Positions 1 through 64,000 of a stretch of 64,000 nucleotides of DNA are shown here, in pieces. The notes below the pieces were generated by a model, which was not told the DNA's origin, did not search any database, and saw nothing but the letters and a program-made list of their open reading frames with translations. A program made the translations under genes and the position numbers. How positions within the stretch are numbered: the stretch's first letter is position 1; each line of letters begins with the position of its first letter. The DNA comes from Patescibacteria group bacterium (GTDB lineage Bacteria > Patescibacteriota > Patescibacteriia > Patescibacteriales > UBA12465). The stretch is taken from contig JAQUAK010000001.1 of NCBI GenBank assembly GCA_028687275.1, positions 356,213 through 420,212 of the forward strand. The letters are read 5' to 3'.

Positions 1-1
1 C

Positions 2-859
2 AAGTTTGTAGCTACAAACAGTAATGTTAAACTTGATCAGCTTAAGTTTGAGGTAACTAAGACAGCCACAACCTCTCCTAATGCCACTGCTATTCAAACA
101 TTAAGTGTTAATGGCATGTCAGCTCCAGTTGTTAAGGTTGGCTCTGATTATGTAGTTGACTTAAATGGTTTGAATATCACCGTTCCAGCTGGAACTCAAG
201 GTTTGAATGTAGAGGTAAAAGCTACTTTCAACAATGTAACTTCAGCTAACCAAGGTGGTGCTCTTACTCATAATGATGTCAGAATTGTTTTGACTGATTA
301 TAAGTATATTGTTGGAAATACAACTACAACTGATTCTGGTTCCATTGCTTCAAACACTATGGTGTTAGTGGCTGGTGCTCCAGTTGTAACTGATGCAACC
401 CCTACCAATCTATCTAAGACTTTGGTAGCTGGTGGCAACAATGAAGTAATGCGCTTTAGTGTTACTGCTCAAAATAGTAATATTAATTTGAGCAATGTTG
501 CAGTAAATGCTTTCGCTAGTTATGGTTTAACTAACCCTGATGTTTACATTTATGATGTCGACAACATGACAACTGCGTTGAATGCTACTGGCACTACTTA
601 TGCTACTTCAACAGTAACTTCAATTCCATTCGATTATGAATACACTATTAATGCTGGTACAACTAAGACCTTCGTGGTTAAGGTTGATAATACTGGTACT
701 ACTGTAGTGGGTGATTATTTCAGAATGGATCTCACAAATGGTACTGATGCTTTAGCAACAGGTACCGCTTGGCAATGGAATGACGGTACAGATACTGCTT
801 ATATGAATGCTTATCTCGTTAAGACATTACCAATCACAGGTGTTACTTTCACTAAATAA
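2..859 (+). CDS. C-terminal part of a Thr/Asn/Val-rich secreted cell-surface (S-layer-like) protein; 5' end lies outside the window
   Basis: Frame 2 is open from base 2 (KFVATNSNVKLDQLKFEV...) with no stop before the ATG at 116 used by the ORF track. Beta-rich T/N/V/G composition, strong T-ending codon bias, strong terminator directly downstream. Confidence 0.6.
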   Translation, partial: KFVATNSNVKLDQLKFEVTKTATTSPNATAIQTLSVNGMSAPVVKVGSDYVVDLNGLNITVPAGTQGLNVEVKATFNNVTSANQGGALTHNDVRIVLTDYKYIVGNTTTTDSGSIASNTMVLVAGAPVVTDATPTNLSKTLVAGGNNEVMRFSVTAQNSNINLSNVAVNAFASYGLTNPDVYIYDVDNMTTALNATGTTYATSTVTSIPFDYEYTINAGTTKTFVVKVDNTGTTVVGDYFRMDLTNGTDALATGTAWQWNDGTDTAYMNAYLVKTLPITGVTFTK

Positions 860-893
860 GCTTAACTCTTAAGTTTAAACAGTGAATGCAAAA

Positions 894-925
894 AAGAGCC
901 CCGTATTTACGGGGCTCTTTTGTAT
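894..925 (+). terminator. Rho-independent terminator
   Basis: AGAGCCCCG / CGGGGCTCT stem with TATTTA loop, followed by TTTTGTATT. Confidence 0.8.
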
Positions 926-957
926 TATCCGGATATGTAGATTATAAATAGTTTTCT

Positions 958-986
958 TTGTTAGTTTGTTCTATATTTGCTATAAT
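958..986 (+). promoter_or_regulatory. Sigma70-type promoter for the 835-aa surface protein gene
   Basis: TTGTTA (958-963), 17-nt spacer, TATAAT (981-986). Confidence 0.45.
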
Positions 987-1035
987 TTAAAGTAATAAAA
1001 GCTTTAAACTTTATTTGAAAAATAATATTAAATTT

Positions 1036-4406: not shown

Positions 4407-4462
4407 TGATATTATTATTATACTGCTCAAAATAAATATGTCAATATATTCAGGACGAGATT

Positions 4463-4477
4463 GTGACAGTATGTCAC
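4463..4477. promoter_or_regulatory. Perfect 15-bp palindrome GTGACAGTATGTCAC (candidate operator or RNA hairpin)
   Basis: 6-bp arms GTGACA/TGTCAC with a 3-nt spacer. The arms are identical to those of the second copy at 4516. Confidence 0.5.
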
Positions 4478-4515
4478 GGAGTGAGTCTTATGATTAAGGA
4501 GTATCAAATGAAACC

Positions 4516-4530
4516 GTGACAAAATGTCAC
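4516..4530. promoter_or_regulatory. Perfect 15-bp palindrome GTGACAAAATGTCAC (second copy)
   Basis: Same arms as 4463-4477. Centre-to-centre distance is 53 bp. Confidence 0.5.
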
Positions 4531-4637
4531 GCTTTGAAAATGTTAAGCTTTGATGGCAAGACACGCCTTATATGAGCCACTGATTTGAAAGCAATTCCGT
4601 TTTATTTGGTCCATTTTACTTATCCACAGGGAAGGGC

Positions 4638-4666
4638 TTGTGTTTCGGTTTAGTTTCGGGTATAAT
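4638..4666 (+). promoter_or_regulatory. lexA promoter with an internal direct repeat
   Basis: TTGTGT (4638-4643), 17 nt, TATAAT (4661-4666). The spacer holds GTTTCGG (4642-4648) and GTTTCGG (4653-4659), 11 bp apart. Confidence 0.5.
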
Positions 4667-4693
4667 AATATTATCAATAAATAAACAATAAAT

Positions 4694-16168: not shown

Positions 16169-16335
16169 GTTTTACTATTTTTATGTTAATGAACAGTTTG
16201 CCGGAAACTTCCGCTGCTCATGTTGATAATAATAGCATATTTTATGTTAATTGTCAAGGTCTTGTCAATAATCTTTAAACATAGCCTTAAGATTTGATTT
16301 TTTTCTTTATTTTTAGTACGATTAAGGTGTTAATC

Positions 16336-16692
16336 GGGGTAAGTAAGCGGCCGCTCTTTTGCGTTATATAACTCAAAGGGGAGGAAAGTCCGGACTTCAT
16401 AAAAAGGGCAGCGGATAATGACCGCCAAGAGTAATCTTAGGGAAAGTGCCACAGAGACAATACTATCTATCTTCATTGATAGAGAAAGGTGAAAAGTTAC
16501 TTGGTGTCCTTTAGGGCTACAAGTTTCGACCGTCGGTAACGACGTGTTCGTGGTAAACCCTGCCTGAAGCAAGAGCAAAGCCAGATGATGCGCAAGTATT
16601 TTTTGGTAAAAAGTAGCTCGCTTGACTTAATTGGTGACAATTAAGCTAGATAAATGGCCGCTCACGACAGAATCCGGCTTATCGCTTACCCC
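16336..16692 (+). ncRNA. rnpB: RNase P RNA (bacterial type)
   Basis: GAGGAAAGTCCGGAC (P4 5' strand), AGGGAAAGTGCCACAGAGA, GGTAAACCC, and ACAGAATCCGGCTTATCGCTTACCCC (P4 3' strand plus P1, pairing with the 5' GGGGTAAGTAAGCGG). Confidence 0.9.
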
Positions 16693-16744
16693 TGTTAATA
16701 TTTTTTAATAAAATATTAATTATTAAATCGCTTTAATCATCAGT

Positions 16745-22074: not shown

Positions 22075-22608
22075 ATATCTTTCTAGTTTCTTATGACTAA
22101 GAATGCATAATAGAGGTGTAATGCTTATTAACTTGATATCTGTCCATAAATTTTTATTTTTTATGTACTCTATATCATGTCTAAATTTATTTAGAGTATT
22201 ACCATCATGGCCACAAAAAATTTGTCCTGGACCAGTTATGCCTGGCTTTGTTGCTAAACGGCAGCTTGGAAAAATCTCTTGTTTTTCTGGTGTATATGGC
22301 CTTGGCCCAACTAAATTCATGTCACCCCTTAAAACTATAAATAGTTCGGGAGTTTCGTCAATGTGAGTACAACGTAGAATTTTTCCGATAGGTGTTACTC
22401 TGCCGTTGTCATCCATTGTCCGGAATTTAAAATATTTAAAAGCTTGGCCATTTTGCCCGATTCTTATTACGGCTTCGCCATTCTTTTTTCTATGATAAAT
22501 TACTGGACCGCCTGAGCTAATTTTTATCGCCAGGGCAGTTAAGATCATAATCGGCATAAGTACTATTAAAAGTATTATGGCTATTAGATAATTTAAGGCT
22601 TTACTCAT
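22060..22608 (-). CDS. Short (182-aa) sugar phosphotransferase, Bac_transf catalytic domain only
   Basis: One N-terminal TM, then DETPELFIVLRGDMNLVGPRPYTPEK...KPGITGPGQ. Confidence 0.85.
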   Translation of the reverse strand: MSKALNYLIAIILLIVLMPIMILTALAIKISSGGPVIYHRKKNGEAVIRIGQNGQAFKYFKFRTMDDNGRVTPIGKILRCTHIDETPELFIVLRGDMNLVGPRPYTPEKQEIFPSCRLATKPGITGPGQIFCGHDGNTLNKFRHDIEYIKNKNLWTDIKLISITPLLCILSHKKLERYFKTA

Positions 22609-23281: not shown

Positions 23282-23284
23282 ATG

Positions 23285-23368
23285 TGCCGCGAGAGGGAAT
23301 CGAACCCTCACAGAGTTTCCCCTACACGAGTTTGAGTCGTGCGCGTCTACCAGTTCCGCCATCGCGGC
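23285..23368 (-). tRNA. tRNA-Leu (anticodon CAA), no encoded CCA
   Basis: Reverse complement is GCCGCGATGGCGGAACTGGTAGACGCGCACGACTCAAACTCGTGT...GAGGGTTCGATTCCCTCTCGCGGCA. It folds with a 7-bp acceptor stem, a CACGA/TCGTG anticodon stem, loop CTCAAAC and a long variable arm. Confidence 0.93.
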
Positions 23369-25560: not shown

Positions 25561-28500
25561 ATGTTTGTCCACCTACATAATCATACTCATTATTCACTAC
25601 TTGATGGTCTTACCAAGATTGACGAGTTAGTGGCGCGCGTTAAAGAAGAGGGTATGCCAGCGGTAGCTATTACTGACCATGGCGTGTTGTATGGCGCTAT
25701 TGAATTTTACCAAAAATGTAAGAAGGCAGGGGTAAAACCAATTATTGGTGTTGAAGCTTATTTAGCTCCTGGCTCGAGACATGATAAGAATACTCGTGCT
25801 GATGGACGAAGTTTTCATTTAGTTTTATTAGCTGAAAATGAGCAGGGTTATAAAAATTTGATTCAGCTGGTTTCCAAAGCTCATTTGGAAGGTTTTTATT
25901 ATAAACCGCGTATCGATTGGGAATTATTAACCCAGCATCACGAAGGTATTATTGCTATGAGCGCTTGTTTAGCTGGAGAAATTTCTCAACTTATTCTAGC
26001 TGGTGATTTAAAAAAAGCAAAAAATAGAATTCTAGAATATAGCAATTTATTTGGGCCAGATCATTATTATTTAGAATTAATGGATCATCCTGAGCTGGAA
26101 GGACAGGCAAAAGTTAATAAACAATTGATTGCTTTTTCTAAAGAATTGGGGGTTCCTTTGGTCGCTACTAATGATTCTCACTATCTCAACGTAGATGATG
26201 CTGAGGCACAAGATATTTTATTATGTATACAGAATAAGAAGAAGATTGATGACACTGATAGAATGAGTATGATGGGAAAAGGAGATTATTCTTTTCGTTC
26301 GGTAGCCGATATGAAGAAAGCTTTTGCACATCTACCAGAGGCAATTAGCAATACAGTGAAAATTGCGGAAATGTGTAATGTGGAAATTCCGCTTGGTGAA
26401 ACCCAATTACCTTATTTTGATGTGCCTAATGGCTATGATGGTGATTCTTATTTACGTTATTTATGTGAAAAGGGTTTGGAGAAGAAATATACAATTTTTA
26501 AAAAAGAAGGGGAATACAGACTTGAAAATAAAAATCATGAAATAGTTAAATTATTAGGTCAGGATAAAATTATTGAAAGACTCGATTATGAGCTAGGAGT
26601 GATTGCTAAGATGGGCTGGCCAGCTTACTTCTTAATCGTGTCTGACTTTGTTAACTGGTCTAAGAATAATAAAATTGTGGTTGGCCCAGGTCGCGGTAGT
26701 GCGGCTGGGTCTTTAGTTTGTTATCTAACCGGTGTTACCAATCTCGATCCCTTACAATATGACTTACTCTTTGAGCGCTTTTTAAATCCTGATCGCATTT
26801 CGATGCCTGATATTGATATGGATTTTGCCGATATTCGTCGGGCAGATGTTTTAAATTATGTGGCTGAAAAATATGGGCACGATCACGTTTCTCAAATTAT
26901 TACTTTTGGAACCATGGCCGCTCGTGCGGCAGTGCGTGATGTCGGTCGAGTTTTAGGGGCCCCTTATGAATACTGTGATAAGATTTCTAAAAGTATTCCG
27001 ATGTTTACTTCATTGAGTAAAGCCCTCTCTGATGTTCCCGAAGTAAAAGAGATGTATCGCAATGAACCGGAAGCTAAAAGAATTCTTGACTACGCTAAGC
27101 GCTTAGAAGGGGTGGCTCGCCATAGCTCAACTCATGCTTGTGGTGTTCTAATTACTCCCAAGCCTCTAACGGAATATGTGCCAGTGCAATATGCATCCTC
27201 AGCGGATAAGAGCGTTATCTCGCAATATTCTTTGCATCCAGTCGAAGATCTTGGTCTTTTAAAGATGGACTTTTTGGGGTTGAAGAACTTAACTATTATT
27301 GAGTCTGCCTTAAGGATTATTAAAAAGACTCGCGGTTTAGAAATAGATATTGATAACTTGCCTTTACATGATAAGCCGGCTTTTGAGTTATTTCAAAAAG
27401 GAGAAACAACCGGTGTTTTTCAGTTTGAATCATCAGGGATGAAACGTTATTTACGTGAATTAAAGCCAACGGAGTTTGAAGATATTATTGCTATGGTAGC
27501 ACTTTATCGTCCTGGTCCAATGGAGTGGATTCCGGACTATATTACTGGTAAGCACAAAGATAAAAAAGTTGAATATTTGCATGAAAAATTAGAGCCAATT
27601 TTAGCTCGAACTTACGGCGTCGCCATCTACCAAGAGCAAGTCATGCAAATTGCTCGTTCTTTAGCCGGGTTTACACCAGGTGAGGCTGATGTTTTACGTA
27701 AGGCCATGGGTAAAAAAATTCCTGCTCTATTAGCTGAACAAAAAGAAAAATTTATCGATGGCTGTGTTAAGAATGGTATTTTTAAGGAGTTGGCGGAAAA
27801 AGTTTTTTCATTTATTGAGCCTTTCGCTGGTTATGGGTTTAATCGTAGTCACGCTGCTTGTTATGCGATGATTGGCTACCAGACTGCTTATTTGAAGGCT
27901 CATTGGCCGGTTGAGTTTATGGCTGCTCTATTAACCTCCGACCAGCACGATAGTGATCGCGTGGCCATTGAGATAGAAGAGTGTCGCAGCATGGGACTGA
28001 AGGTAATGGCGCCAGATATTAATGAGTCTTTTGCCTCTTTTACCGTGGTAACGGCAGGCACCAAAGAAAATCGCAGCGTGCAGTCAGGGGAAGTGGTGGA
28101 CACTATTCGTTTTGGTTTAAATGCTATCAAAAATATTGGCGAACATATTATTGAAATTATTATTGAAGAACGTAAGCAGGGCGGTGCTTTCAAAGATATT
28201 TTTGATTTACTAGAACGTATTAATGACCGTGATTTAAATAAAAAATCCTTAGAAAGTTTGATTAAGAGCGGTGCCTTGAGTAGCTTTGGCGAGCAAGCAA
28301 TGCTTTTAGCCAATTCGGAACGTTTCCTTATTTTTAATAAAGATATTTCCAAGCAAGTCGAGAGTCGTCAGGTTACTCTTTTTTCGGCTTCATCGAGTTT
28401 TGATCATCTGGCCAGACCTCAATTGTTAGAATCAGAACCAGTGGACCCAATGTTAAAATTATCTTGGGAAAAAGATTTGCTCGGTCTTTATATTAGCGAT

Positions 28501-29226
28501 AATCCCTTATCCATGTTTTTGCCTTTCTTAGGAAATTTTAGTGTGCCTTTGATTCGTTTAAAACAACATCGTGGTGATGAAAGTCTGGTTGTGGCTGGGG
28601 TTATCACGTCACTTAAAAAAATTATTACTCGTAAAGGCGAATCAATGCTGTTTGTAAAAATTGAGGATAAAAATGCCAGTGTTGAATTATTAATATTTCC
28701 CAGATTATTAAAAACAAGCGCTGAATTATGGGAAGAAGGTTCTTTGGTTATTGTGCGTGGAAAACTATCTGAAAAAGACTCTGATTTAAAAATATTAGTT
28801 GATCAGGTTGGCCCACTTTGGCCAGAAAAACCACAAGAGTCCATTGATAATTTTAAACGAGTATTATTAGATAATAAAAGTGTTAAGCGCTGGAGTAGCC
28901 CTTTTACTGATAGAAATAAAAATGAAAACAAGGTTGAAATACCAGTGACAGCTAGCGTGAAGGCAGAAAAATCAACCGCTGAGATTGAGCCTAGTTTACG
29001 TATCGTTTTTAAAAATCCGCCAACGACGGAAGAGCAAAAATCCTTAAAAGCAGCCTTGGATGACTTTAGCGGGGAAAATTCTGTTTATTTACGGGTGCCG
29101 GCAAATAAGCAGGATAATGTGATTAAGATTGCTACTCTAGTTGATAATAGTTCTGATTTAAGAGAGCTCTTGCGTCATAATTTTTCTGATGATGTGCAAA
29201 TTATTGAGCCAGGAAATGATATTTAA
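25561..29226 (+). CDS. dnaE: DNA polymerase III alpha subunit
   Basis: MFVHLHNHTHYSLLDG PHP domain, PDIDMDF, and the GYGFNRSHAACYA finger region. 1221 aa. Confidence 0.97.
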   Translation: MFVHLHNHTHYSLLDGLTKIDELVARVKEEGMPAVAITDHGVLYGAIEFYQKCKKAGVKPIIGVEAYLAPGSRHDKNTRADGRSFHLVLLAENEQGYKNLIQLVSKAHLEGFYYKPRIDWELLTQHHEGIIAMSACLAGEISQLILAGDLKKAKNRILEYSNLFGPDHYYLELMDHPELEGQAKVNKQLIAFSKELGVPLVATNDSHYLNVDDAEAQDILLCIQNKKKIDDTDRMSMMGKGDYSFRSVADMKKAFAHLPEAISNTVKIAEMCNVEIPLGETQLPYFDVPNGYDGDSYLRYLCEKGLEKKYTIFKKEGEYRLENKNHEIVKLLGQDKIIERLDYELGVIAKMGWPAYFLIVSDFVNWSKNNKIVVGPGRGSAAGSLVCYLTGVTNLDPLQYDLLFERFLNPDRISMPDIDMDFADIRRADVLNYVAEKYGHDHVSQIITFGTMAARAAVRDVGRVLGAPYEYCDKISKSIPMFTSLSKALSDVPEVKEMYRNEPEAKRILDYAKRLEGVARHSSTHACGVLITPKPLTEYVPVQYASSADKSVISQYSLHPVEDLGLLKMDFLGLKNLTIIESALRIIKKTRGLEIDIDNLPLHDKPAFELFQKGETTGVFQFESSGMKRYLRELKPTEFEDIIAMVALYRPGPMEWIPDYITGKHKDKKVEYLHEKLEPILARTYGVAIYQEQVMQIARSLAGFTPGEADVLRKAMGKKIPALLAEQKEKFIDGCVKNGIFKELAEKVFSFIEPFAGYGFNRSHAACYAMIGYQTAYLKAHWPVEFMAALLTSDQHDSDRVAIEIEECRSMGLKVMAPDINESFASFTVVTAGTKENRSVQSGEVVDTIRFGLNAIKNIGEHIIEIIIEERKQGGAFKDIFDLLERINDRDLNKKSLESLIKSGALSSFGEQAMLLANSERFLIFNKDISKQVESRQVTLFSASSSFDHLARPQLLESEPVDPMLKLSWEKDLLGLYISDNPLSMFLPFLGNFSVPLIRLKQHRGDESLVVAGVITSLKKIITRKGESMLFVKIEDKNASVELLIFPRLLKTSAELWEEGSLVIVRGKLSEKDSDLKILVDQVGPLWPEKPQESIDNFKRVLLDNKSVKRWSSPFTDRNKNENKVEIPVTASVKAEKSTAEIEPSLRIVFKNPPTTEEQKSLKAALDDFSGENSVYLRVPANKQDNVIKIATLVDNSSDLRELLRHNFSDDVQIIEPGNDI

Positions 29227-35743: not shown

Positions 35744-36844
35744 ATGGGAGGGAGGAGTAAAAATTATTTTACTAAAAAAGGAAAGGCGATTTTAATCGCC
35801 TCCTTTTTTGTATTATCAATTTCTATCTTAGGTCTATATTATTTTGTTTATGTGCCTGACTGGTCTTGGTTAAGAATTTTTTCACATATTCAAGAAAGTG
35901 AGGTTAATTCAGTCACCTCAACTGAAGAAATAATTTCTGATCTTCCTGCTGATGATATCTGTGACAGCTGTGTGCGTCGCTGGCTAGATGGAATACCAGT
36001 GCCAGCTGCAGAGGCTAATGTTTTTCCAGTGGCAGTTATGATTGATAATGATGTTTTAGCTCGTCCGCAGACAGGGCTATCTAAAGCCTCTTTAGTCTAT
36101 GAAGCACCGGTTGAAGGTGGCATGACTAGATATCTTGCTATATTCTCTGATAAGAGTGAGGTGGCGGCCATTGGACCAGTTAGGAGTGCTCGCCCCTATT
36201 TTGTTGCACTAGCGGCTGATTTAGAGGCTCTTTATCTTCATTGCGGTGGTAGCCCTGAAGCTTTAGATGATATCAAAAAGGCAAGTGTTTATGGTTTAAA
36301 TGAGTTTTATAATAGTAGCTATTTTTGGCGCGTTACTAATGGCACGCGAGAAGCTCCACATAATATTCTAACTAGTAGCGAGAGCTGGCAGACTTATTTA
36401 GCGACTCATGATTTTGATATTAATGAACCTGAGGCTTGGCAGTTTAAAAGCGAGGGCGAACATCTGTCAACGGCGGCTGATTTAAGTATTTATTTTAGCT
36501 CAAATTTTAGAGCTCTTTGGCGTTACGATGCTGAGCCTAATGAGTATTTACGTTATTTTAATGGTCTGGTTGGTCGTGATGATGATGGGGAAATTAGAGC
36601 CAAGAATATCATTGTTCAGTATGTAGAAAGTGAAGTTTTAGATCAGGCTGGACGTTTAAGAATTTCCTTAACTGGTAGTGGCGAGGCCTTGTTTTGCGCG
36701 GATGGCGAGTGTCAGTCTACTACTTGGATTAAAAAATTAGGCGCTAGAACAAAATATTATTTTATTAATGGGGAGGAGATAAAATTAAATCCAGGAGTTA
36801 CCTGGATTGAATTAGCTGATCAGAATACAAAGGTCTCCTATTAG
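35744..36844 (+). CDS. DUF3048-family secreted protein
   Basis: N-terminal TM anchor. VAVMIDNDVLARPQTGLSKASLVYEAPVEGGMTRYLAIF is the hallmark DUF3048 N-domain motif. Confidence 0.75.
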   Translation: MGGRSKNYFTKKGKAILIASFFVLSISILGLYYFVYVPDWSWLRIFSHIQESEVNSVTSTEEIISDLPADDICDSCVRRWLDGIPVPAAEANVFPVAVMIDNDVLARPQTGLSKASLVYEAPVEGGMTRYLAIFSDKSEVAAIGPVRSARPYFVALAADLEALYLHCGGSPEALDDIKKASVYGLNEFYNSSYFWRVTNGTREAPHNILTSSESWQTYLATHDFDINEPEAWQFKSEGEHLSTAADLSIYFSSNFRALWRYDAEPNEYLRYFNGLVGRDDDGEIRAKNIIVQYVESEVLDQAGRLRISLTGSGEALFCADGECQSTTWIKKLGARTKYYFINGEEIKLNPGVTWIELADQNTKVSY

Positions 36845-37713
36845 TTGCGCCTATTATTAAGTTCAATAAATCTCGTCTGACCGTTTAGATCAGGCGTTTT
36901 TTTAATATTTATGTCACTTAAATTATTAGCGCTTGCTTGTATTAATTTTTCTGCCTGCCAGGGATTAATTTCCATTACCAAATGAAAATTAAATTCATCT
37001 TGATACTTTTTTAGTTGTTGCAATAATTCAAGATAAAGCTCTAAACCGTCTTTACCGCCCAAAAGAGCAAGGTCGGGTTCAGCTTTAATGCTATTTTCTC
37101 CTTCTCTTTCTTCCTTGGTTAGATAGGGAAGATTAGCGGCAATAAATAGATACCTAATATTATGCCGCCTGATTAAATCTATAAACGGAGTAAATAAATT
37201 ACCAGCAAGAAAGTTAATTCTATTATCTAACCCATAAGCCTGAGCGTTGATTTTTGCTTGCTTAATAGCATCGGTAGATATGTCTCCGGCCATAAATGCA
37301 CAATTTTTAAATGCAATTTGGTCTTTTTTCTGTAACTCAGAGGCAATGCTTGTAATAAGAGCTCCGGAGCCAGTGCCAATATCTAGGCAAGCAGCTTTTT
37401 CTTGGCTTTTAACTATGGATTCTATAGCTATATCAACTATTAATTCAGTTTCAGGACGAGGAATAAGAACCTTGGGTGATACTTTAAAATTATAGTTATA
37501 GAAAGCTTGTTCGCTAGTAATATAGGCCAAAGGCGTACCCGTTAATAAAAGTTCGTAGGCTTGTTTAAAAAGTACTTCCTCTTGATCGTTTAATTCGTAT
37601 TCACTATGGCTCAGTAGCCAGCTAAGATCGCGCTTGCATACAAAAACCAGAAGACTTTTAATCTCCCGGCTATATTTTTTACTTAAATTAAAATTAGATT
37701 CTAGGGTAGACAT
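36841..37713 (-). CDS. prmC: Release-factor glutamine N5-methyltransferase PrmC/HemK
   Basis: IPRPETE, DIGTGSGA SAM motif, ANLPY (NPPY-type) motif. ATG 37713 lies 1 nt after the prfA stop (the track ORF extends to 37758). Confidence 0.85.
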   Translation of the reverse strand: MSTLESNFNLSKKYSREIKSLLVFVCKRDLSWLLSHSEYELNDQEEVLFKQAYELLLTGTPLAYITSEQAFYNYNFKVSPKVLIPRPETELIVDIAIESIVKSQEKAACLDIGTGSGALITSIASELQKKDQIAFKNCAFMAGDISTDAIKQAKINAQAYGLDNRINFLAGNLFTPFIDLIRRHNIRYLFIAANLPYLTKEEREGENSIKAEPDLALLGGKDGLELYLELLQQLKKYQDEFNFHLVMEINPWQAEKLIQASANNLSDINIKKTPDLNGQTRFIELNNRRN

Positions 37714-37714
37714 A

Positions 37715-38752
37715 TTAAGAACGTAAAGCTTTCTTAACTGCTTTAATAACATCCTCAATGTCGCCGTCTAAAACTGAATTTAGGCCATGCCAAGACTGTC
37801 CAATGCGATGATCTGTTAAACGGTCTTGAGGAAAGTTATAAGTTCTAATCTTATCACTACGATCACCAGCGCCAACCTGATCTTTACGAGCACTGGATTC
37901 AGAGGCCTGTCTTTCTTCCTCTTGTTTAGCCAAGAGTCGTGAACGTAAAACTTGTAGAGCTTTTTCTCTATTTTGATGTTGTGATTTCTGATCTTGGCAG
38001 CTAACGATAATGCCGGTAGGAATATGAAGAATACGAATAGCTGAATAAGTAGTGTTAACGCTTTGTCCGCCCGGCCCACTGGAACAGAAAGTATCAATAC
38101 GAATATCAGCCATATTTAAAGAAACATCAACTTCTTCTGCTTCGGGTAAGACTACGACAGTGGCAGTTGAGGTGTGAATTCGTCCTTGTTTCTCTGTTTC
38201 CGGCACACGTTGTACACGATGAGTACCAGCTTCATATTTTAAATTGCCAAAGCCACCAAGCCCTTTAATGGTAAAGATAACTTCTTTAAAGCCGCCGGTG
38301 CCGATTACACTTGAGGAAATCATTTCTGTTTTCCAGCCACGTCTTTCGCAAAAGCGTACATACATACGAAATAAATCACCAGCAAAAAGAGCCGCTTCAT
38401 CGCCACCAGTTCCAGCTCTTATTTCAATAATGGCATTTTTATGATCATTTGGACCTTGAGGATGGCGTTCTTCTTCAATTTCAGTGCTAACTTTTATTAA
38501 CTGTTCTTCAAGATTTAATAAATCTTCTTCGGCCATGCTTTTTAGCTCAGCATCATTTTCTTGATTCAGTAGTTCTTTATTATCAGCAATCTCTTTGTTG
38601 AGTCTTTCTTCTTCATTGATTAAACCAATAAGATTTTTCATAGCTGCATGCTTTTGGGAAATCTTAATCATCTCCTGAGGATCGCTCATGAGTTTAGGGT
38701 CGGATAATTTTTTTTCAATTTCGGCGAATTGATTCTTTATTTCTTGATACAT
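37715..38752 (-). CDS. prfA: Peptide chain release factor 1
   Basis: RVQRVPETE (PxT tripeptide of RF1), GPGGQSVNTT GGQ motif. The start at MYQEIKNQFAEIEKKL is preferred over the track start at 38785. Confidence 0.95.
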   Translation of the reverse strand: MYQEIKNQFAEIEKKLSDPKLMSDPQEMIKISQKHAAMKNLIGLINEEERLNKEIADNKELLNQENDAELKSMAEEDLLNLEEQLIKVSTEIEEERHPQGPNDHKNAIIEIRAGTGGDEAALFAGDLFRMYVRFCERRGWKTEMISSSVIGTGGFKEVIFTIKGLGGFGNLKYEAGTHRVQRVPETEKQGRIHTSTATVVVLPEAEEVDVSLNMADIRIDTFCSSGPGGQSVNTTYSAIRILHIPTGIIVSCQDQKSQHQNREKALQVLRSRLLAKQEEERQASESSARKDQVGAGDRSDKIRTYNFPQDRLTDHRIGQSWHGLNSVLDGDIEDVIKAVKKALRS

Positions 38753-39354: not shown

Positions 39355-40785
39355 ATGAATAAAGTCGCTAATATTGCTAAAAATACCTCCTATTTAACAC
39401 TTGCTTTAGTTATTCAGAAAGTCATTTCCTTTTCTTATTTTATTATTTTAGCAAGGTTTTTGGGTCTAGAATCTCTAGGGCAGTATTATACTGCCATTTC
39501 TTTTACCACTATCTTTTCTATCTTTATTGATTTTGGTTTTGCTAATGTGCTAACTAGAGAAGTGGCTAAAAATCAAGAAAAAGCTTCCGATTGGTTACGT
39601 AATGTATTGGGTATTAAACTAATTCTAAGCGTCGCCACTATAGTAGTGGCTTTAGCAGTGGCTTATTTTGCCTATGATTCTAAGTTATTGCTCTTAATTG
39701 CTGTCTCTTGCCTATCAATGTTCTTTGATTCTTTTACAACTACTTTCTTTTCAGTAGTTCGGGGTTTTCATAATTTAAAATTTGAAAGTCTAGCTTCTAT
39801 TATTTTTCAAGTAATTGTTTTAGTGCTTGGTTATGCTTTATTAAAAGCGGGCTGGCCTTTAGTTTTTTTACTGTTAGCTATTGTTATTGCCAGTTTGTTT
39901 AATTTTTTATACTCAGCGACGATTGTAAAAAAGTATTTACATTTAAAGATTAAACCACAACTAAATATCGAGAAGATAAAATTGATTTTTAATATTAGCT
40001 GGCCCTTTGCTTTGTATCAGATTTTTCAACGCTTATTTACTTATCTTGACACTCTACTACTAGGTTTTATCGCTGGCTATGGACAAGTTGGTCTTTACCA
40101 AATTGCTTTTAAGATTATTTTTGCTTTACAATTTTTACCAATGGCCTTTAATGCCTCTCTTTATCCGGCCATGAGTGCCTATTGGCAAAGTAATCGTGAA
40201 CAATTAAGAGTGACCTTTGAAAGAGCTATTAATTATTTATTAATTATTTCTTTGCCTATAATTTTTGGAGTCTTTGCGCTGGCCGATAAGATTGTGCCTT
40301 TATTTAAGGCTGGACCGGAGGCTATTTGGCCTTTACGCATTTCTATCTTAGCCTTATTATTTATTTTCTTAAATTTTCCAGTTGGGGCATTACTTAATGC
40401 GTGTGATCGTCAAAAACGCAACACTGCCAATATGGCGGCTGTTACTTTTATTAGTTTAGGTCTTAATTTATTCTTTATACCTAATTTTCAAGCCCTAGGC
40501 GCCAGTATAACCGTTTTAATAAGTAATTTTCTCATGTTAGTGCTTGGTCTATTTGCGATGCGTGGTTTAATTGTTTACCGTCCGGCCAAAAATGCACGTA
40601 CTTTAGTTTCTGCTTTTATTTCCGCTCTGCTTATGGCTTTAATTATATTTTTTGCTAAACAATATTTACAGGTATTTATTGCTGTTTTAATGGGTGGCCT
40701 AGTTTATTTCGGGGCACTCTTAATACTGGGCGGCATTAGAAAGGCAGACATCAGTAGTATTATTACTTCTTTTCGTCGCTCTTAA
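39355..40785 (+). CDS. Wzx-like polysaccharide flippase (MOP superfamily)
   Basis: 476 aa, about 14 TM, N-terminal IAKNTSYLTLALVIQKVISFSYFIILARFLG pattern typical of polysaccharide biosynthesis proteins. Confidence 0.8.
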   Translation: MNKVANIAKNTSYLTLALVIQKVISFSYFIILARFLGLESLGQYYTAISFTTIFSIFIDFGFANVLTREVAKNQEKASDWLRNVLGIKLILSVATIVVALAVAYFAYDSKLLLLIAVSCLSMFFDSFTTTFFSVVRGFHNLKFESLASIIFQVIVLVLGYALLKAGWPLVFLLLAIVIASLFNFLYSATIVKKYLHLKIKPQLNIEKIKLIFNISWPFALYQIFQRLFTYLDTLLLGFIAGYGQVGLYQIAFKIIFALQFLPMAFNASLYPAMSAYWQSNREQLRVTFERAINYLLIISLPIIFGVFALADKIVPLFKAGPEAIWPLRISILALLFIFLNFPVGALLNACDRQKRNTANMAAVTFISLGLNLFFIPNFQALGASITVLISNFLMLVLGLFAMRGLIVYRPAKNARTLVSAFISALLMALIIFFAKQYLQVFIAVLMGGLVYFGALLILGGIRKADISSIITSFRRS

Positions 40786-40788
40786 ATT

Positions 40789-41868
40789 ATGAAATTATTA
40801 CTTTGCACACTTGAATATCCACCACAAATAGGTGGTGTAGCTAATTACTACTCCGAATTAATTGAGGCCTGGCCAGAAACTGACACTTGGACAGTTTTAG
40901 ATAATAGTCAAAGAAAGCTATTGTCTAAATCTAAATTTTTTCCTTGGCTATCTTCAGTCTTATCTTTAATCAAGGAATATCGTCGTCATAATTATGATTT
41001 AATTTTTATTGGACAGGTATTACCACTTGGTACGGCAGCTTTAATTTCTCAGTTTTTTACCGGGTTTAAATACGGTCTTTTTTTTCATGGCATGGATTTT
41101 ACTTTTGCTTTGAAATCTAGCCGCAAGCGTTGGCTTCTACGTTTAATTTTAAAGAAAGCTAAAATAATTGTTTGTGCTAATTCCTATGTGGAAAAATTAT
41201 TAATTGAATTTGCGCCGAAGGTGGCTGATAAGACTAAGTTAATTAATCCTGGAGTAAAAAAGGGTTTAGTGGATGAAGAAGTTAAGCAATCTCTAGTTAA
41301 TAAGTATAATCTAACAGGGAAGAAGATTATTTTCTCTATTGGGCGCTTAGTTAAGCGTAAGGGTTTTGATCAGGTAATCAAGGCCTTGGAGGGGACTTCT
41401 TTCGATAATTGGGTTTATATCTTAGCTGGCGATGGGCCGGAATTAGAATCGCTTAGGTCTTTAGCCTTGGCTAGTAAAGTTAAAGATAAGATCATATTTA
41501 TTGGTCGTTTAAATGAAAAAGAAAAGTGGTCATGTTTGTCTTTGTGTGATATATTTATAACGACATCGCGTGATTTAGATGGTGACTTTGAAGGTTTCGG
41601 GATTGTTTATTTAGAAGCGGCTCTGATGTCAAAACCGGTTATTGCTGGTTTAAGCGGTGGTGTCTCTGATGCAGTTATTAATAATGAGTGCGGATTATTA
41701 GTAGATTCAGAAAGTATCCCTGCAATTGAAGAAGCTCTAAGTAAATTGTTAAAAGACGAAGACTTGGCCCGAACTCTAGGCGAATATGCTTGTCAGCGAG
41801 CAAAAACAAATTTTAATTGGAAACAACAATCCGAAAACTTATCTAAATTTTTAAAATCATTTAATTAA
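40789..41868 (+). CDS. Glycosyltransferase family 4
   Basis: MKLLLCTLEYPPQIGGVANY. C-terminal FEGFGIVYLEAALMSKPVIAGLSGGVSDAV. Confidence 0.85.
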   Translation: MKLLLCTLEYPPQIGGVANYYSELIEAWPETDTWTVLDNSQRKLLSKSKFFPWLSSVLSLIKEYRRHNYDLIFIGQVLPLGTAALISQFFTGFKYGLFFHGMDFTFALKSSRKRWLLRLILKKAKIIVCANSYVEKLLIEFAPKVADKTKLINPGVKKGLVDEEVKQSLVNKYNLTGKKIIFSIGRLVKRKGFDQVIKALEGTSFDNWVYILAGDGPELESLRSLALASKVKDKIIFIGRLNEKEKWSCLSLCDIFITTSRDLDGDFEGFGIVYLEAALMSKPVIAGLSGGVSDAVINNECGLLVDSESIPAIEEALSKLLKDEDLARTLGEYACQRAKTNFNWKQQSENLSKFLKSFN

Positions 41869-44532: not shown

Positions 44533-44595
44533 TACTTAAAATTGCCATATCGCCTCTTAATTTAATCGGCGTTGGCTTAATTAATTTAAATATTT

Positions 44596-45054
44596 ATGTC
44601 AGACCAAATTATCACTCAAGAAGGCTATAATAAATTAGAAGATGAATTGCATAATCTAAGTACTATCAAAAGAAGAGAAATAGCAGAAAGAATTGAAAGG
44701 GCTAAAGACTTGGGTGATTTAAGTGAGAACGCTGAATATAGTGAAGCTAAAGACGCCCAGGCTCTAAATGAGGGTCGTATCTTGGAGCTTACTAATATTT
44801 TAAAGAATGTAGTTGTGGTTAACGGCAAGGGCGGCAGTGACGAGGTGGCAATGGGCTCTGAGGTTACCGTTAAAAGTGATGGTAAAGAAAAAAAGTATAC
44901 TATTGTTAGTTTTAATGAGGCTGACCCTCTAAATGGAAAAATTTCTAATGAATCTCCTTTGGGTGTATCATTTTTAGGAAAGAAAAAGGGGACTAATGTA
45001 AATGTGGAGACGCCAAGAGGTATCGTCGAGTATAAGATTATAAAAATTGATTAA
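44596..45054 (+). CDS. greA: Transcription elongation factor GreA
   Basis: ITQEGYNKLEDELHNL...RAKDLGDLSENAEYSEAKDAQ...SNESPLG. Confidence 0.93.
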   Translation: MSDQIITQEGYNKLEDELHNLSTIKRREIAERIERAKDLGDLSENAEYSEAKDAQALNEGRILELTNILKNVVVVNGKGGSDEVAMGSEVTVKSDGKEKKYTIVSFNEADPLNGKISNESPLGVSFLGKKKGTNVNVETPRGIVEYKIIKID

Positions 45055-45061
45055 TTTGTAT

Positions 45062-46604: not shown

Positions 46605-46675
46605 TCGGGGATCGTCTAATGGTAGGACAGCTGGTTCTGGTCCAGTCAATCGGGGTTCGAATCCCTGTCCCCGAG
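46605..46675 (+). tRNA. tRNA-Gln (anticodon CTG)
   Basis: Hand-folded cloverleaf: acceptor TCGGGGA/TCCCCGA with U1-A72 and G73, D stem GTCT/GGAC, anticodon stem GCTGG/CCAGT, loop TTCTGGT, T arm CGGGG-TTCGAAT-CCCTG. 71 nt, no encoded CCA. Confidence 0.9.
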
Positions 46676-46692
46676 CAGAATTTTTACGAAAA

Positions 46693-48962: not shown

Positions 48963-49449
48963 TTTTTATGATTTCATAGCTGAAGATTCTAATGGCCAGA
49001 ATATTAAAATGTCTGACTACCGCGGTCAAGTAGTTTTAGTTGTTAATACAGCCAGTAATTGTGGATTTACTAAGCAATATGCCGGCCTAGAAAAAATATA
49101 TCAAGACTATAAAAATCAAGATTTTATTATTTTAGCTTTCCCTTGTAATCAGTTTGCTGGTCAGGAACCAAAAGATGGGGCGGATATTGTTTCTTTTTGC
49201 CAACTAAACTACGGCGTTAGCTTTCCAATTTTTAAAAAGATAAAAGTTAATGGTCGAGATGCTCATCCGCTTTTTACTTATTTAAAACAAGAATTATCAG
49301 GAATATTAGGTGGTCGTATTAAATGGAATTTTACTAAGTTTTTGATTGACCGCTCAGGTCAACCCCTTAAACGATTCGCATCCGCGGAGACACCCGAAGA
49401 GATTGATAAATATCTAATTAAAAATAAAATTTTAGATAAAGTTAAATAA
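48955..49449 (+). CDS. Glutathione peroxidase (Cys type)
   Basis: VVLVVNTASNCGFTKQY...LAFPCNQFAGQEP...IKWNFTKFLI. Confidence 0.92.
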   Translation: MNNFYDFIAEDSNGQNIKMSDYRGQVVLVVNTASNCGFTKQYAGLEKIYQDYKNQDFIILAFPCNQFAGQEPKDGADIVSFCQLNYGVSFPIFKKIKVNGRDAHPLFTYLKQELSGILGGRIKWNFTKFLIDRSGQPLKRFASAETPEEIDKYLIKNKILDKVK

Positions 49450-60026: not shown

Positions 60027-60149
60027 ATGGCTAAACGAGACACAGGCGTGGGAAAAGGCAAGAAGTCTCATTCCCACAAAACAGCAAAAAGATTAGAAAT
60101 TAAGCGCGTAATGCTTGAAGAAAAGGCAGCTAAACGTGCTAAAAAATAA
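60027..60149 (+). CDS. 40-aa highly basic micro-protein
   Basis: MAKRDTGVGKGKKSHSHKTAKRLEIKRVMLEEKAAKRAKK, TAA stop, with its own terminator at 60177-60208. Below the track cut-off. Confidence 0.35.
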   Translation: MAKRDTGVGKGKKSHSHKTAKRLEIKRVMLEEKAAKRAKK

Positions 60150-61450: not shown

Positions 61451-62374
61451 ATGAGAAATAACAAAGTCACTATTATCGGAGCTGGCATGGTTGGAAGCAC
61501 CACTGCTTTTGGTCTAATAGCCTCTGATATAACTGAAGAAATTGCCTTAATTGATTTAAATAAAAAAATGGTGGCCGCACAGGTTATGGACTTGCAGCAC
61601 TCCGTGCCTTTTTGGGGATACACCAAAGTTAAAGTTGGCAGCTACGATGACATTAAAAACAGCGAATTAGTTGTCGTCACTTGTGGTGCCTCACAAAAAA
61701 TTGGCGAAACTAGATTAGATTTATTGAAAAAGAATGCTGGCATTATTAAAGATATTATGCCTAATATTTTTAAGAAAAATCCAGATGCTGTTGTACTGAT
61801 TGTTAGTAATCCAGTTGACATTCTCACTAATATCGCTTGTAAAATGTTTCCAAAGAAAAAGAATCAAATTTTTGGATCGGGTACAATTTTAGACACCGCA
61901 CGCTTCCGTCTAATTTTAGGAGAGAAAATGTCGGTTGACCCTAAAAGTGTTCATGCTTATATTGTTGGTGAGCATGGTGATAGCGAATTGCCTCTGTGGA
62001 GCACGGCCATGATTGGTAATACTCCGATCAATAAGTTTTCGAAAATATCAGCAAGGAGTAAGCGATCGGTATTTGAAGAAGCTAAAAATGCTGCTTACGC
62101 TATTATTGAAGGGAAGCAGGCAACTTATTACGCTATTGCCGCTGGAGTAGTTCAATTAGCTAAAGCAGTTTTATTAGATAAAAAAACAGTCTTTACTTGC
62201 TCTCACCCATTAAATGGTGAATTTGGCATTAAAGGAGTTTCTTTAAGTTTACCAGTTGTTATCGGTGATAAAGGAGTGTTAAAAAAAATTAATTTAGATA
62301 TTTCGGCTGAAGAGAAAAAAATGTTACAAAAATCAGCCCAGAAATTAAAAGAAGCAGAGAGGGGCTTAAAATAA
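61451..62374 (+). CDS. ldh: L-lactate dehydrogenase
   Basis: KVTIIGAGMVGSTTAF Rossmann motif, GETRLDLL, VSNPVDILT, GEHGDSELP (LDH-type). ATG 61451 is preferred over GTG 61421. Confidence 0.88.
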   Translation: MRNNKVTIIGAGMVGSTTAFGLIASDITEEIALIDLNKKMVAAQVMDLQHSVPFWGYTKVKVGSYDDIKNSELVVVTCGASQKIGETRLDLLKKNAGIIKDIMPNIFKKNPDAVVLIVSNPVDILTNIACKMFPKKKNQIFGSGTILDTARFRLILGEKMSVDPKSVHAYIVGEHGDSELPLWSTAMIGNTPINKFSKISARSKRSVFEEAKNAAYAIIEGKQATYYAIAAGVVQLAKAVLLDKKTVFTCSHPLNGEFGIKGVSLSLPVVIGDKGVLKKINLDISAEEKKMLQKSAQKLKEAERGLK

Positions 62375-62394
62375 TTTTTTAAAAAATACACTAT

Positions 62395-62422
62395 AAGTCC
62401 CGCCTCTAGCGGGGCTTATTTA
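62395..62422 (+). terminator. Rho-independent terminator
   Basis: AAGTCCCGC / GCGGGGCTT stem (one G.U), then TATTTATT. Confidence 0.7.
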
Positions 62423-62434
62423 TTATCTGAACTA

Positions 62435-63556
62435 ATGAAAAAAATTATTCTCAACTTAATAAAAATTTTACTTCTTCTGCTACTAGCGATAATTATGCTA
62501 TTGGCGAGCGGTTTTTTTGCAGTGCGCTGGGGCTGGACGAATGTGGCCGGTGAAGAGGATGATAATTCTTTTGCTTACAATCTAATTGCTGAAACTAAAC
62601 CAGTTGATGCTTGGATAAGTCCTGGATTACCAGAGAATCTATCAGTTTATGGAAAGAATGAACATCTTAATTGGTGCCGCTTAGGTGTTGCTGTAAACAT
62701 TTCCCCTTATGATGCTGCTGGTATTTTTAAAGCTTATACAAAAACCAAGTCCGAAGAACTTTTAGACAGAATGCTCTTAGCGCTTAGCCTGCGTCAGGGA
62801 GAGGGTAGTGTCTTTCAACAATTAATTAAGGATTGTAATAATGAGTCTGGATATTGGAATGAGGAAACTTTACAATTAGCTTTAACTGATATTCCAAAAA
62901 AGAGCGTCTATGCTTGGCAAAATGGAGAGCCTTGGCAAATTATCAAGGAGGCAATCATCAAAGATGAGGCCCAAATTAAAGAAGTGGCTAAGACTGTTGA
63001 TATCCAGCCACGTTTATTAGTTTCAGTGGCTATTGTGGAGCAGCTACGTTTATATTATACGCAAAGAGAATTTTATGAGCAATTTTTTAAACCCCTAAAA
63101 ATACTGGCCAATGCCAATAAAATGGCCTGGGGCATTATGTCTATTAAAGAAAAAATGGCTATTGAAACCGAACAACATTTAAATGATAAAAATTCTGCTT
63201 ATTACCTTGGACCCGATAATGAAACATTATTAAATTATAAACCTGATATTAATATTGCTAAAGAGCGCTACAATCGCCTGACAAATGAGAAAAATCATTA
63301 CTACTCCTACCTTTACGGAGCTTTAATTATCAAACAATTCCAGGCACAATGGTTAAAGGCTGGCTTTGATTTGAAGTATCGGCCAGAAATAATTGCCACC
63401 TTATTTAATATTGGTTTTAATAATTCACAACCTAAAGCTAATCCTTCAGTGGGCGGATCAACTCTTGATATTGAAGGTGAAAAATATTTTTTTGGCTCGC
63501 TGGCTTTTGAATTTTATTATTCTGATGAACTGAGCGAGGCTTTTCCTTTCGAATAG
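62435..63556 (+). CDS. Hypothetical membrane-anchored/secreted protein
   Basis: N-terminal TM (ILLLLLLAIIMLLASGFFAV) and a 340-aa external domain. No motif recognised. Confidence 0.65.
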   Translation: MKKIILNLIKILLLLLLAIIMLLASGFFAVRWGWTNVAGEEDDNSFAYNLIAETKPVDAWISPGLPENLSVYGKNEHLNWCRLGVAVNISPYDAAGIFKAYTKTKSEELLDRMLLALSLRQGEGSVFQQLIKDCNNESGYWNEETLQLALTDIPKKSVYAWQNGEPWQIIKEAIIKDEAQIKEVAKTVDIQPRLLVSVAIVEQLRLYYTQREFYEQFFKPLKILANANKMAWGIMSIKEKMAIETEQHLNDKNSAYYLGPDNETLLNYKPDINIAKERYNRLTNEKNHYYSYLYGALIIKQFQAQWLKAGFDLKYRPEIIATLFNIGFNNSQPKANPSVGGSTLDIEGEKYFFGSLAFEFYYSDELSEAFPFE

Positions 63557-63619
63557 TTCATTGTTCTAATTTGCGTCTCGCTGTATAATAAAAAGAGATA
63601 ATTTTTTTGTTATAATTTT

Positions 63620-64000
63620 ATGATAAATTACTATAAACGTAGTATAAAAAATTTAAATATAAAAAGCTCAAAAGAGTATAAAGAGGGTTGTATTATTTTA
63701 GTGAGCAGTCCAGAAGAAAAAGAGTTAGATGATTTAGCTCTAGAATTTAGCTTAGAGAGGGATCTTCTTTCTGATGCTTTAGACCCCTACGAAGTGCCAC
63801 GCATGGAACTAGAAAAAAATGCTGTTTACGCTTTTGCCCGCATTCCTACTGAAATAACTGGTCGTACAGCAACCATCCCTTTATTAATAATTGTTGGCAA
63901 CGGATTTTTGATGTTGGTGGCCAAGAAAGATTTAGATTTTTTATTTAAAGATTTACGTAAGCGTAAGGATTTTTTTACCACTCAGAAAACTACCTCATTT
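63620..64000 (+). CDS. CorA-like Mg2+/Co2+ transporter, N-terminal part (runs off the window)
   Basis: Open frame from ATG 63620 to the window end (127 codons). ...LSDALDPYEVPRMELEKNAVYAFARIP resembles the CorA LEDxLxxxxRPKxE segment. Absent from the ORF track because it has no stop. Confidence 0.5.
   Translation, partial: MINYYKRSIKNLNIKSSKEYKEGCIILVSSPEEKELDDLALEFSLERDLLSDALDPYEVPRMELEKNAVYAFARIPTEITGRTATIPLLIIVGNGFLMLVAKKDLDFLFKDLRKRKDFFTTQKTTSF

What the first reader, a model, noticed from the sequence alone, without database searches (positions are those of the whole stretch)
1..64000. TGA is absent both as a stop codon and as a sense codon
I read the terminal codon of all 56 track ORFs that I accept as genes and that end inside the window. 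The count is 41 TAA, 15 TAG and 0 TGA. The three micro-ORFs I added also end in TAA. The ORF track does treat TGA as a stop: the spurious ORF 22103..22366 ends ...ATG TGA. Conserved genes (dnaE, lysS, prfA, mnmA, parB) are full length, so TGA is not a frequent sense codon either, although it is common out of frame. The only release factor in the window is RF1, which reads UAA and UAG. If TGA ended 10% of genes, 0 of 56 would have probability 0.9^56, about 0.003. The pattern fits an avoided or unassigned UGA through RF2 loss or weakness. That would be a codon-capture intermediate, in a radiation where other lineages (Gracilibacteria, Absconditabacteria) read UGA as Gly.
Basis: partly seen in the sequence, partly recalled or inferred. 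Interest (0 to 1): 0.6.

Follow-up and report, generated by a model that had tools for sequence, protein, structure and literature searches.

The report
No TGA stop codons in window
All 56 genes in this stretch of a small, AT-rich candidate-phyla-radiation bacterium end in TAA or TAG and never in TGA; this most likely reflects an ordinary genetic code in which TGA has become very rare, but loss of the TGA-reading release factor could not be tested.

Summary
56 genes (about 19,000 codons) end 41 TAA, 15 TAG, 0 TGA. None has an in-frame TGA, although TGA is common out of frame and between genes. The only release factor is a normal RF1.

The organism is a Falkowbacteria-like Patescibacterium (NCBI MAG, locus tag PHE20_, 593-kb contig).

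In perfectly syntenic relatives, orthologues of these same genes end in TGA at the same C-termini. The count is 8 of 17 in a 46%-GC relative and 2 of 17 in the closest outgroup, often as ATGA overlaps. The family therefore ancestrally uses the standard code with RF2.

P(0/56) is therefore about 0.01-0.05.

Closer relatives also show no TGA stops, but most of those genes are orthologues of the window's genes; only about 18 are new.

TGA and TAG trinucleotides are equally frequent in non-coding DNA, so the 15:0 TAG:TGA split at stops is specific to TGA.

I could not reach the rest of the genome, so prfB, tRNA-UCA and the genome-wide census remain untested.

Most likely this is a standard code with TGA nearly purged (about 0.6). 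RF2 loss with UGA unassigned remains possible (about 0.2).

The parts
1..64000 (.). Census region: 56 protein genes, stops 41 TAA / 15 TAG / 0 TGA, with 0 in-frame TGA in about 19,000 codons
37715..38752 (-). prfA, release factor 1 (345 aa, true start at the 12th codon of the ORF). It has the PET (PxT) motif and GGQ. It is NCBI protein MDD2680833.1.
   Evidence: Pfam PCRF + RF-1; sequence; homologues are 345 aa; exact match to the NCBI protein; decoding motifs identical to those of TGA-using relatives
36841..37758 (-). prmC, release-factor glutamine methyltransferase, just downstream of prfA. Its orthologue ends in TGA in L006, L018 and L028.
23284..23368 (-). tRNA-Leu(CAA); not a UGA reader
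46605..46676 (+). tRNA-Gln(CUG); not a UGA reader
25561..29226 (+). dnaE, ends TAA here. Its orthologue ends in TGA at the same C-terminus in L001, L002 and L006.
35744..36844 (+). DUF3048 gene, ends TAG here. Its orthologue ends in TGA in L001, L002 and L016.
39355..40785 (+). Polysaccharide-synthesis flippase-like gene, ends TAA with a 3-nt spacer. Its orthologue ends in TGA in L002, L004, L006, L008, L009 and L016; in L004, L006 and L016 the coordinates show a 4-nt overlap with the next gene.
40789..41868 (+). Group-1 glycosyltransferase, ends TAA. Its orthologue ends in TGA in nine relatives (L002, L003, L004, L006, L010, L012, L016, L018, L023).
44596..45054 (+). greA, ends TAA. Its orthologue ends in TGA in L002.
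22103..22366 (+). Spurious TGA-ending ORF, antisense to a Bac_transf gene (22060-22608, -). The other three TGA-ending ORFs of at least 80 aa (15063-15380+, 27900-28352-, 32108-32476+) are also antisense to longer genes.
16335..16697 (+). RNase P RNA (bacterial class A). It shows that ORF 16330-16578(-) is not a gene.

Best explanation
The genome uses the standard bacterial code. RF2 is retained and TGA still means stop. In this low-GC (35.6%) Falkowbacteria-like clade, TGA stops have been almost entirely replaced by TAA and TAG, so usage is probably no more than about 3%. A 56-gene window therefore happens to contain none.

Shown:
- The family ancestrally terminates at TGA.
- TGA usage in the family falls with GC, to about 6% below 38% GC.
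- The window's clade has none in about 74 distinct genes.
- There is no sense TGA.

Inferred:
- RF2 is still present.
- The extra depletion reflects AT-biased mutation plus selection against UGA. UGA is the leakiest stop, and it depends on a single factor in a tiny, slow-growing cell.
For: - Orthologues of window genes, in identical gene order, end in TGA at the same C-terminus (tails of 8 aa or less) in relatives: 8/17 in L002 (RF1 78% identical, GC 46%), 2/17 in L001 (80%, GC 41%), and 1-5 per locus in L003, L004, L006, L016 and others. In L009 prfA itself ends in TGA.
- The TGA share rises with GC across 40 related loci: 5-7.5% below 38% GC and 15-18% above. So 0/56 is only a 1-5% event even without any clade effect.
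- Several other low-GC relatives also show 0 TGA in 10-19 genes (L005, L007, L013, L017, L020, L101). Zero counts are therefore common at this sampling depth.
- The RF1 decoding elements are unchanged between the clade and TGA-using relatives.
- From my own knowledge, no natural bacterium is established to lack RF2 while leaving UGA unassigned. The literature searches found none for Patescibacteria.
Against: - TAG is abundant (15/56) while TGA is zero, yet the two trinucleotides are equally frequent in non-coding DNA (98 vs 100). AT pressure alone should depress both.
- The TGA:TAG ratio differs from that of low-GC relatives (0:15 vs 14:25, Fisher p = 0.005).
- No ATGA 4-nt overlaps exist among 25+ tightly packed same-strand gene pairs, although relatives have 4-nt overlaps at orthologous junctions.
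- The nearest relatives add 0 TGA in 17+16+6+4+13+10 gene calls.
- RF2 presence was not shown.
Confidence: 0.6

Rival explanations
1. RF2 has been lost (or is non-functional) in this clade and UGA is an unassigned codon. All former TGA stops were converted to TAA or TAG, and no tRNA reads UGA yet. This would be a natural codon-capture / unassigned-codon intermediate.
For: - There are 0 TGA stops in 56 window genes, and 0 in about 18 further distinct genes plus about 40 orthologues in the nearest relatives.
- The depletion is specific to TGA: TAG is 27% of stops and TGA is as common as TAG in non-coding DNA.
- There are no ATGA overlaps.
- There are no in-frame TGAs.
- Only RF1 lies in the window.
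- The genome is small, low in GC and belongs to the CPR, a radiation in which UGA recoding is known for Gracilibacteria and Absconditabacteria (PMC8629427).
Against: - prfB absence was never tested. One window of a contig of at least 593 kb says nothing about a single-copy gene elsewhere.
- The closest outgroups with the same synteny use TGA stops, so any loss would be very recent.
- With the family base rate of about 6%, all the data together are only a roughly 0.2-1% event, and the window was selected for being zero.
- The independent replication is weak (0.94^18 = 0.33).
- The prior for this state is very low.
Confidence: 0.2
2. Pure sampling chance. The genome uses TGA at the family-typical 5-8% of stops, and this window simply missed them.
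For: P(0/56) is 0.009-0.045 at 6-8%. A first-stage scan of many windows will turn up such cases. Single relatives' loci with 0 of 15-19 are frequent.
Against: - The nearest relatives also show none, including in genes outside the window (UvrA/B/C, L10, L7/L12, a sigma factor and others).
- The orthologues that are TGA in the outgroups are all TAA or TAG here.
- The TAG:TGA ratio of 15:0 departs from the family ratio (p = 0.005).
Confidence: 0.15
3. UGA is already reassigned to an amino acid (Gly as in code 25, or Trp as in code 4) but is still very rare.
For: None directly. It is compatible only with the lack of TGA stops.
Against: - There are no in-frame TGAs in 19,299 window codons. None occurs in the roughly 66 genes called on the nearest relatives' loci, and their orthologues of window genes are of matching length.
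- Table-11 ORFs cover 88-98% of these loci, except L109 at 82%.
- No tRNA-UCA lies in the window.
- From my own knowledge, established code-4 and code-25 genomes carry many in-frame UGAs per 10 kb.
Confidence: 0.03

Closest known systems
Stop-codon usage bias in low-GC, standard-code bacteria (TAA dominant, TGA share falling with GC)
   Same: The genome is 35.6% GC with TAA at 73% of stops. In relatives the TGA share tracks GC. There is no in-frame TGA.
   Different: TGA is 0 rather than the 5-8% seen in relatives of the same GC, while TAG is high (27%). The depletion is specific to TGA.
UGA-to-Gly code 25 of Absconditabacteria / Gracilibacteria (CPR)
   Same: Same radiation, small low-GC genomes, no TGA stops, RF1 present.
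   Different: Here there is no in-frame TGA at all and no tRNA-UCA in view. The lineage (Falkowbacteria-like) is different, and its close relatives terminate at TGA (PMC8629427).
UGA-to-Trp code 4 (Mycoplasmatales/Entomoplasmatales, insect endosymbionts, some Eggerthellaceae)
   Same: Low GC and TAA/TAG-only termination. The 'unassigned codon' model for these lineages proposes RF2 loss before tRNA gain (PMC13462651).
   Different: No sense UGA was seen here. Loss of RF2 is not shown.
Unassigned CGG codon of Mycoplasma capricolum (Oba et al. 1991, cited in PMC8629427)
   Same: This is the analogy if the novel reading is true: a codon that has vanished from coding sequence and has no decoder.
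   Different: That case is a sense codon with a demonstrated lack of tRNA. Here the decoder (RF2) status is unknown.

Membership tests
Standard bacterial code (table 11) | TGA terminates a share of genes | tested here: not met
   0/56 in the window. The test covers the window only, about one tenth of a contig of at least 593 kb. It is met in syntenic relatives L001, L002 and others.
Standard bacterial code (table 11) | No in-frame TGA inside conserved genes | tested here: met
   0 in 19,299 codons. DnaE, LysS, RF1, MnmA, ParB and FtsW are full length against Pfam and orthologues.
Standard bacterial code (table 11) | prfB (RF2) gene present | not testable with these tools
   None lies in the window or in any fetched locus.
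Code 25 / code 4 (UGA = Gly / Trp) | In-frame TGA at conserved Gly or Trp positions | tested here: not met
   No in-frame TGA occurs in window genes or in the genes called on the nearest relatives' loci.
Code 25 / code 4 (UGA = Gly / Trp) | tRNA with UCA anticodon | tested here: inconclusive
   The window holds only tRNA-Leu(CAA) and tRNA-Gln(CUG). The genome-wide tRNA set was not seen.
Code 25 / code 4 (UGA = Gly / Trp) | RF2 absent | not testable with these tools
   As for the standard-code row on prfB.
Unassigned-codon / codon-capture intermediate | Codon absent from all reading frames of genes, both as stop and as sense, genome-wide | tested here: inconclusive
   Met for 56 window genes and for about 66 gene calls in the nearest relatives. 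The upper 95% bound on TGA usage is still about 3%.
Unassigned-codon / codon-capture intermediate | The decoder is lost (no RF2) and there is no new tRNA | not testable with these tools
   The whole genome is needed.
Release factor 1 (prfA) | PCRF and RF-1 domains, PxT tripeptide, GGQ | tested here: met
   Pfam E-values 5e-68 and 4e-42. The sequence contains RVPETEKQGRIHTS and SGPGGQ. It is named RF1 in NCBI (MDD2680833.1).

The most novel reading that the evidence does not exclude
A Falkowbacteria-like Patescibacteria clade has recently lost RF2, and UGA is currently unassigned: neither stop nor sense. The clade comprises the window's MAG, GCA_016938835.1, GCA_021734825.1 and related metagenome contigs. 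It would be a living example of the unassigned-codon / codon-capture intermediate, sitting next to syntenic sister lineages that still terminate at UGA.
Probability: 0.18. Interest if true: 0.8.

Novelty: already known. Interest (0 to 1): 0.35.

Why it matters
If the ordinary reading is right, this is one more AT-rich genome with skewed stop-codon use. The only practical note is that stop-codon base rates must be taken from close relatives, not from a generic 10%.

If the minority reading is right, it matters much more. Models of stop-codon reassignment (codon capture, unassigned codon) postulate a stage in which UGA has vanished and RF2 is gone but no tRNA reads UGA. As far as I know, that stage has not been documented in a free-standing bacterial lineage. 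Here it would be flanked by syntenic relatives that still use UGA, so the order of events (UGA purge, RF2 loss, tRNA gain) could be read directly from a handful of MAGs.

Tried and rejected
**Attempts to reach the rest of the genome**
- Exact-protein look-ups of window genes failed or returned only short Logan contigs (L107 at 7 kb, L108 at 1.4 kb).

**prfB search**
- tblastn with RF1, reading TGA as sense, against the window and all 110 loci found only the RF1 orthologues.

**Collection scans**
- The genome-collection and metagenome scans did not contain the window's own genome. The best RF1 match was 80%, and the best match to the 373-aa protein was 80%.

**Other checks that led nowhere**
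- The TGA-rich open frame 4407-4691 (7 TGAs in 94 codons under a TAA/TAG-only reading) is not a recoded gene. It is the lexA upstream region, and two GTGACA-N3-TGTCAC palindromes supply some of the TGAs.
- In-frame TGAs just upstream of five start codons (5562/5634, 7836, 19312, 32991, 60260) lie 5' of the first start codon of those ORFs. The HTH-gene case (5562/5634) was not checked against homologues.
- RF1 has not adapted to read UGA. Its decoding motifs are identical in the clade and in TGA-using relatives, and the only three clade-specific substitutions lie outside the PET, GGQ and alpha-5-tip motifs.
- Literature searches for RF2 loss or stop-codon usage in Patescibacteria or Falkowbacteria found nothing relevant.
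Full report
**1. What is in the window**

The window is 35.6% GC and densely coding. Six-frame ORFs, Pfam and Rfam give 56 protein genes, two tRNAs and one RNase P RNA.
- The tRNAs are Leu-CAA at 23284-23368(-) and Gln-CUG at 46605-46676(+).
- The RNase P RNA lies at 16335-16697(+). It removes one ORF, 16330-16578(-), from my first list of 57.

TGA in the coding and non-coding sequence:
- No gene has an in-frame TGA in 19,299 codons.
- Within the same genes TGA occurs 253 times in frame +1 and 949 times in frame +2.
- In 6,244 nt of intergenic DNA, TGA (98) is as frequent as TAG (100).

Checks for missed TGA-using genes:
- The four TGA-terminated ORFs of at least 80 aa are all antisense to longer genes.
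- No small intergenic ORF that ends in TGA looks real.
- Reading TGA as sense joins no coding segments.

The only release factor (37715-38752, -) has PCRF and RF-1 domains, the PxT tripeptide (PET) and GGQ, so it is RF1. prmC follows it and rpmE precedes it.

**2. Whose genome it is**

RF1 homologues place the window among Patescibacteria close to 'Candidatus Falkowbacteria'. The 835-aa protein at 1015-3522 is 100% identical to NCBI MDD2680801.1. That protein carries locus tag PHE20_01705, belongs to 'Patescibacteria group bacterium' and sits on a 593,020-bp contig. The window's RF1 is MDD2680833.1 on the same contig.

I could not obtain DNA of that contig beyond the window. Only short Logan contigs were served.

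**3. What relatives do**

The block from lysS to dnaE has the same gene order throughout the family. Stop codons can therefore be compared orthologue by orthologue.

Outgroups terminate the same genes at TGA, at the same C-terminus (tails of 8 residues or less):

| Locus | RF1 identity | GC | TGA stops | Genes ending in TGA |
|---|---|---|---|---|
| L002 | 78% | 46% | 8 of 17 | greA, dnaE, DUF3048 and others |
| L001 | 80% | 41% | 2 of 17 | dnaE, DUF3048 |
| L003, L004, L006, L016, L012, L018, L023 | lower | various | 1-5 each | various |
| L009 | 70% | 48.5% | 2 of 15 | prfA itself and the flippase-like gene |

At several of these junctions the coordinates show a 4-nt overlap with the next gene, the geometry of an ATGA overlap. 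The family therefore ancestrally uses the standard code, which implies RF2.

The nearest relatives are about 75-77% identical to the window in nucleotides. Their RF1 is 88-91% identical. They show no TGA stop:

| Locus | Source | TGA stops |
|---|---|---|
| L081 | GCA_016938835.1 | 0/17 |
| L082 | Logan contig SRR12088350 (same RF1, P0002, as GCA_021734825.1) | 0/16 |
| L084 | one JGI sample | 0/6 |
| L089 | the same JGI sample | 0/4 |
| L101 | one ENA sample | 0/13 |
| L109 | the same ENA sample | 0/10 |

L101 and L109 are somewhat more distant than the others.

Most of these genes are orthologues of window genes, so they are only partly independent. Stop codons differ between the window and L081 in about 3 of 16 pairs, always TAA to TAG or the reverse. 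About 18 genes are new, including uvrA/B/C, rplJ, rplL and a sigma factor.

Slightly further out, L103 and L106 end uvrC in TGA.

**4. How unusual is zero?**

I counted stops across 40 related loci.
- The TGA share is 5-7.5% below 38% GC (14 of 233) and 15-18% above.
- A logistic fit predicts 8% at the window's GC.
- P(0/56) is 0.009 at 8%, about 0.03 at 6%, and 0.045 by Fisher test against the low-GC relatives.

Two points argue the other way.
- The depletion is specific to TGA. TAG is 27% of stops, against 11% in low-GC relatives. The TGA:TAG ratio of 0:15 differs from the family's 14:25 (Fisher p = 0.005). The two trinucleotides are equally supplied in non-coding DNA.
- Among more than 25 tightly spaced same-strand gene pairs there is no 4-nt ATGA overlap. 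I take ATGA overlaps to be the commonest source of TGA stops.

Replication outside the window is weak: 0.94^18 = 0.33 for the new genes.

Pooling everything gives about 74 distinct genes and perhaps 90-100 effective observations. That bounds TGA usage in the clade at no more than about 3%. It cannot separate 'very rare' from 'extinct'.

**5. Mechanistic readings**

(a) Standard code, RF2 retained, TGA nearly purged. This needs only the family-wide trend plus a clade-specific strengthening of selection against UGA. It agrees with the recent TGA-using ancestry and with an unaltered RF1.

(b) RF2 lost, UGA unassigned. This explains the TGA-specific zero, the high TAG share and the missing ATGA overlaps. 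It requires a very recent loss and rests on no positive evidence. prfB, tRNA-UCA and the genome-wide census could not be examined.

(c) Chance at the family-typical rate.

(d) UGA already sense. This is effectively excluded as an established state, because there are no in-frame TGAs here or in the nearest relatives.

To weigh these I used a low prior for (b), since I know of no documented natural case, and the likelihoods above. I put (a) at about 0.6, (b) at about 0.2, (c) at about 0.15 and (d) at about 0.03.

**6. Comparison with the known**

The pattern works like ordinary GC-linked stop-codon bias, pushed to an extreme.

It is not a member of code 25 or code 4. Their defining feature, in-frame UGA at conserved Gly or Trp columns, was tested and not met.

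Membership in an 'unassigned-codon intermediate' class cannot be decided, because its defining feature (loss of the decoder) is untestable with the data I could reach. The relevant models and precedents are summarised in PMC8629427 (Codetta screen) and PMC13462651 (Eggerthellaceae UGA-to-Trp, discussion of the unassigned-codon model). I found no paper that reports RF2 loss or stop-codon usage for Falkowbacteria or Patescibacteria outside Gracilibacteria and Absconditabacteria.

**7. Verdict**

The proposed cause is unproven and, on balance, less likely than an ordinary code with very rare TGA.

One inexpensive analysis would settle it: a prfB search, a tRNA scan and a stop-codon census on the PHE20_ MAG and its two sister MAGs.

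Noticed in passing
window 16335-16697 (+): A full-length bacterial class-A RNase P RNA (225.6 bits, E = 6e-72). The 82-aa ORF 16330-16578(-) that overlaps it is an artefact.
   Followed up: yes
window 4463-4477 and 4516-4530 (+), upstream of lexA (4694-5305): Two perfect palindromes, GTGACA-N3-TGTCAC, lie 53 nt apart in the lexA upstream region. None is expected by chance (0 of 100 shuffles). They are candidate LexA operators (an SOS box) for this lineage. They also contribute some of the 7 TGAs in the 4407-4691 frame.
   Followed up: partly
L001, L002, L004, L006, L007 and others (record titles): Several MAGs that are clearly Patescibacteria are deposited under other names: 'uncultured Gammaproteobacteria bacterium', 'Bacillota bacterium' or 'Candidatus Saccharimonadales'. 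They share the lysS-dnaE gene order with the window and their RF1 is 65-80% identical. The taxonomy labels are likely wrong.
   Followed up: no
window 29343-46555 versus L001-L023, L081-L084: The gene order lysS-greA-Wzy-DUF192-GT2-GT1-flippase / rpmE-prfA-prmC / DUF3048-rplY-ftsW-...-dnaE is conserved across relatives down to about 62% RF1 identity. That is unusually stable synteny for such divergent genomes.
   Followed up: partly
L009 8142-9257 (+): In this relative (GC 48.5%) the RF1 gene itself ends in TGA, so RF1 synthesis there depends on RF2.
   Followed up: no
window 2-859 (+) and 1015-3522 (+): The ORF running in from the left edge is the C-terminus of a protein of at least 1,099 aa (L107; 1,170 aa in L109). 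The next gene is annotated in NCBI from 1036 (828 aa), not from the TTG at 1015. Both are large proteins with little or no Pfam annotation, only a weak T2SS/T3SS pilus N-terminal match.
   Followed up: partly
window 37715-38785 (-): The RF1 ORF has 11 extra N-terminal codons (MELIIFLSHSY) before the start that homologues share. Logan gene calls use the long 356-aa form and NCBI uses the 345-aa form. The long form made exact look-ups fail.
   Followed up: yes
window 25266-25409 (+) and 60027-60149 (+): Two small intergenic ORFs both end in TAA and are possible unannotated small proteins. One is 47 aa with a hydrophobic stretch and a basic tail. The other is 40 aa, very basic, and begins MAKRDTGVGKGKK.
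   Followed up: no
window 48955-49449 (+): This is a glutathione-peroxidase family gene with a full-length Pfam match and no in-frame TGA, so it cannot be a TGA-encoded selenoprotein. I did not inspect the active-site residue.
   Followed up: no
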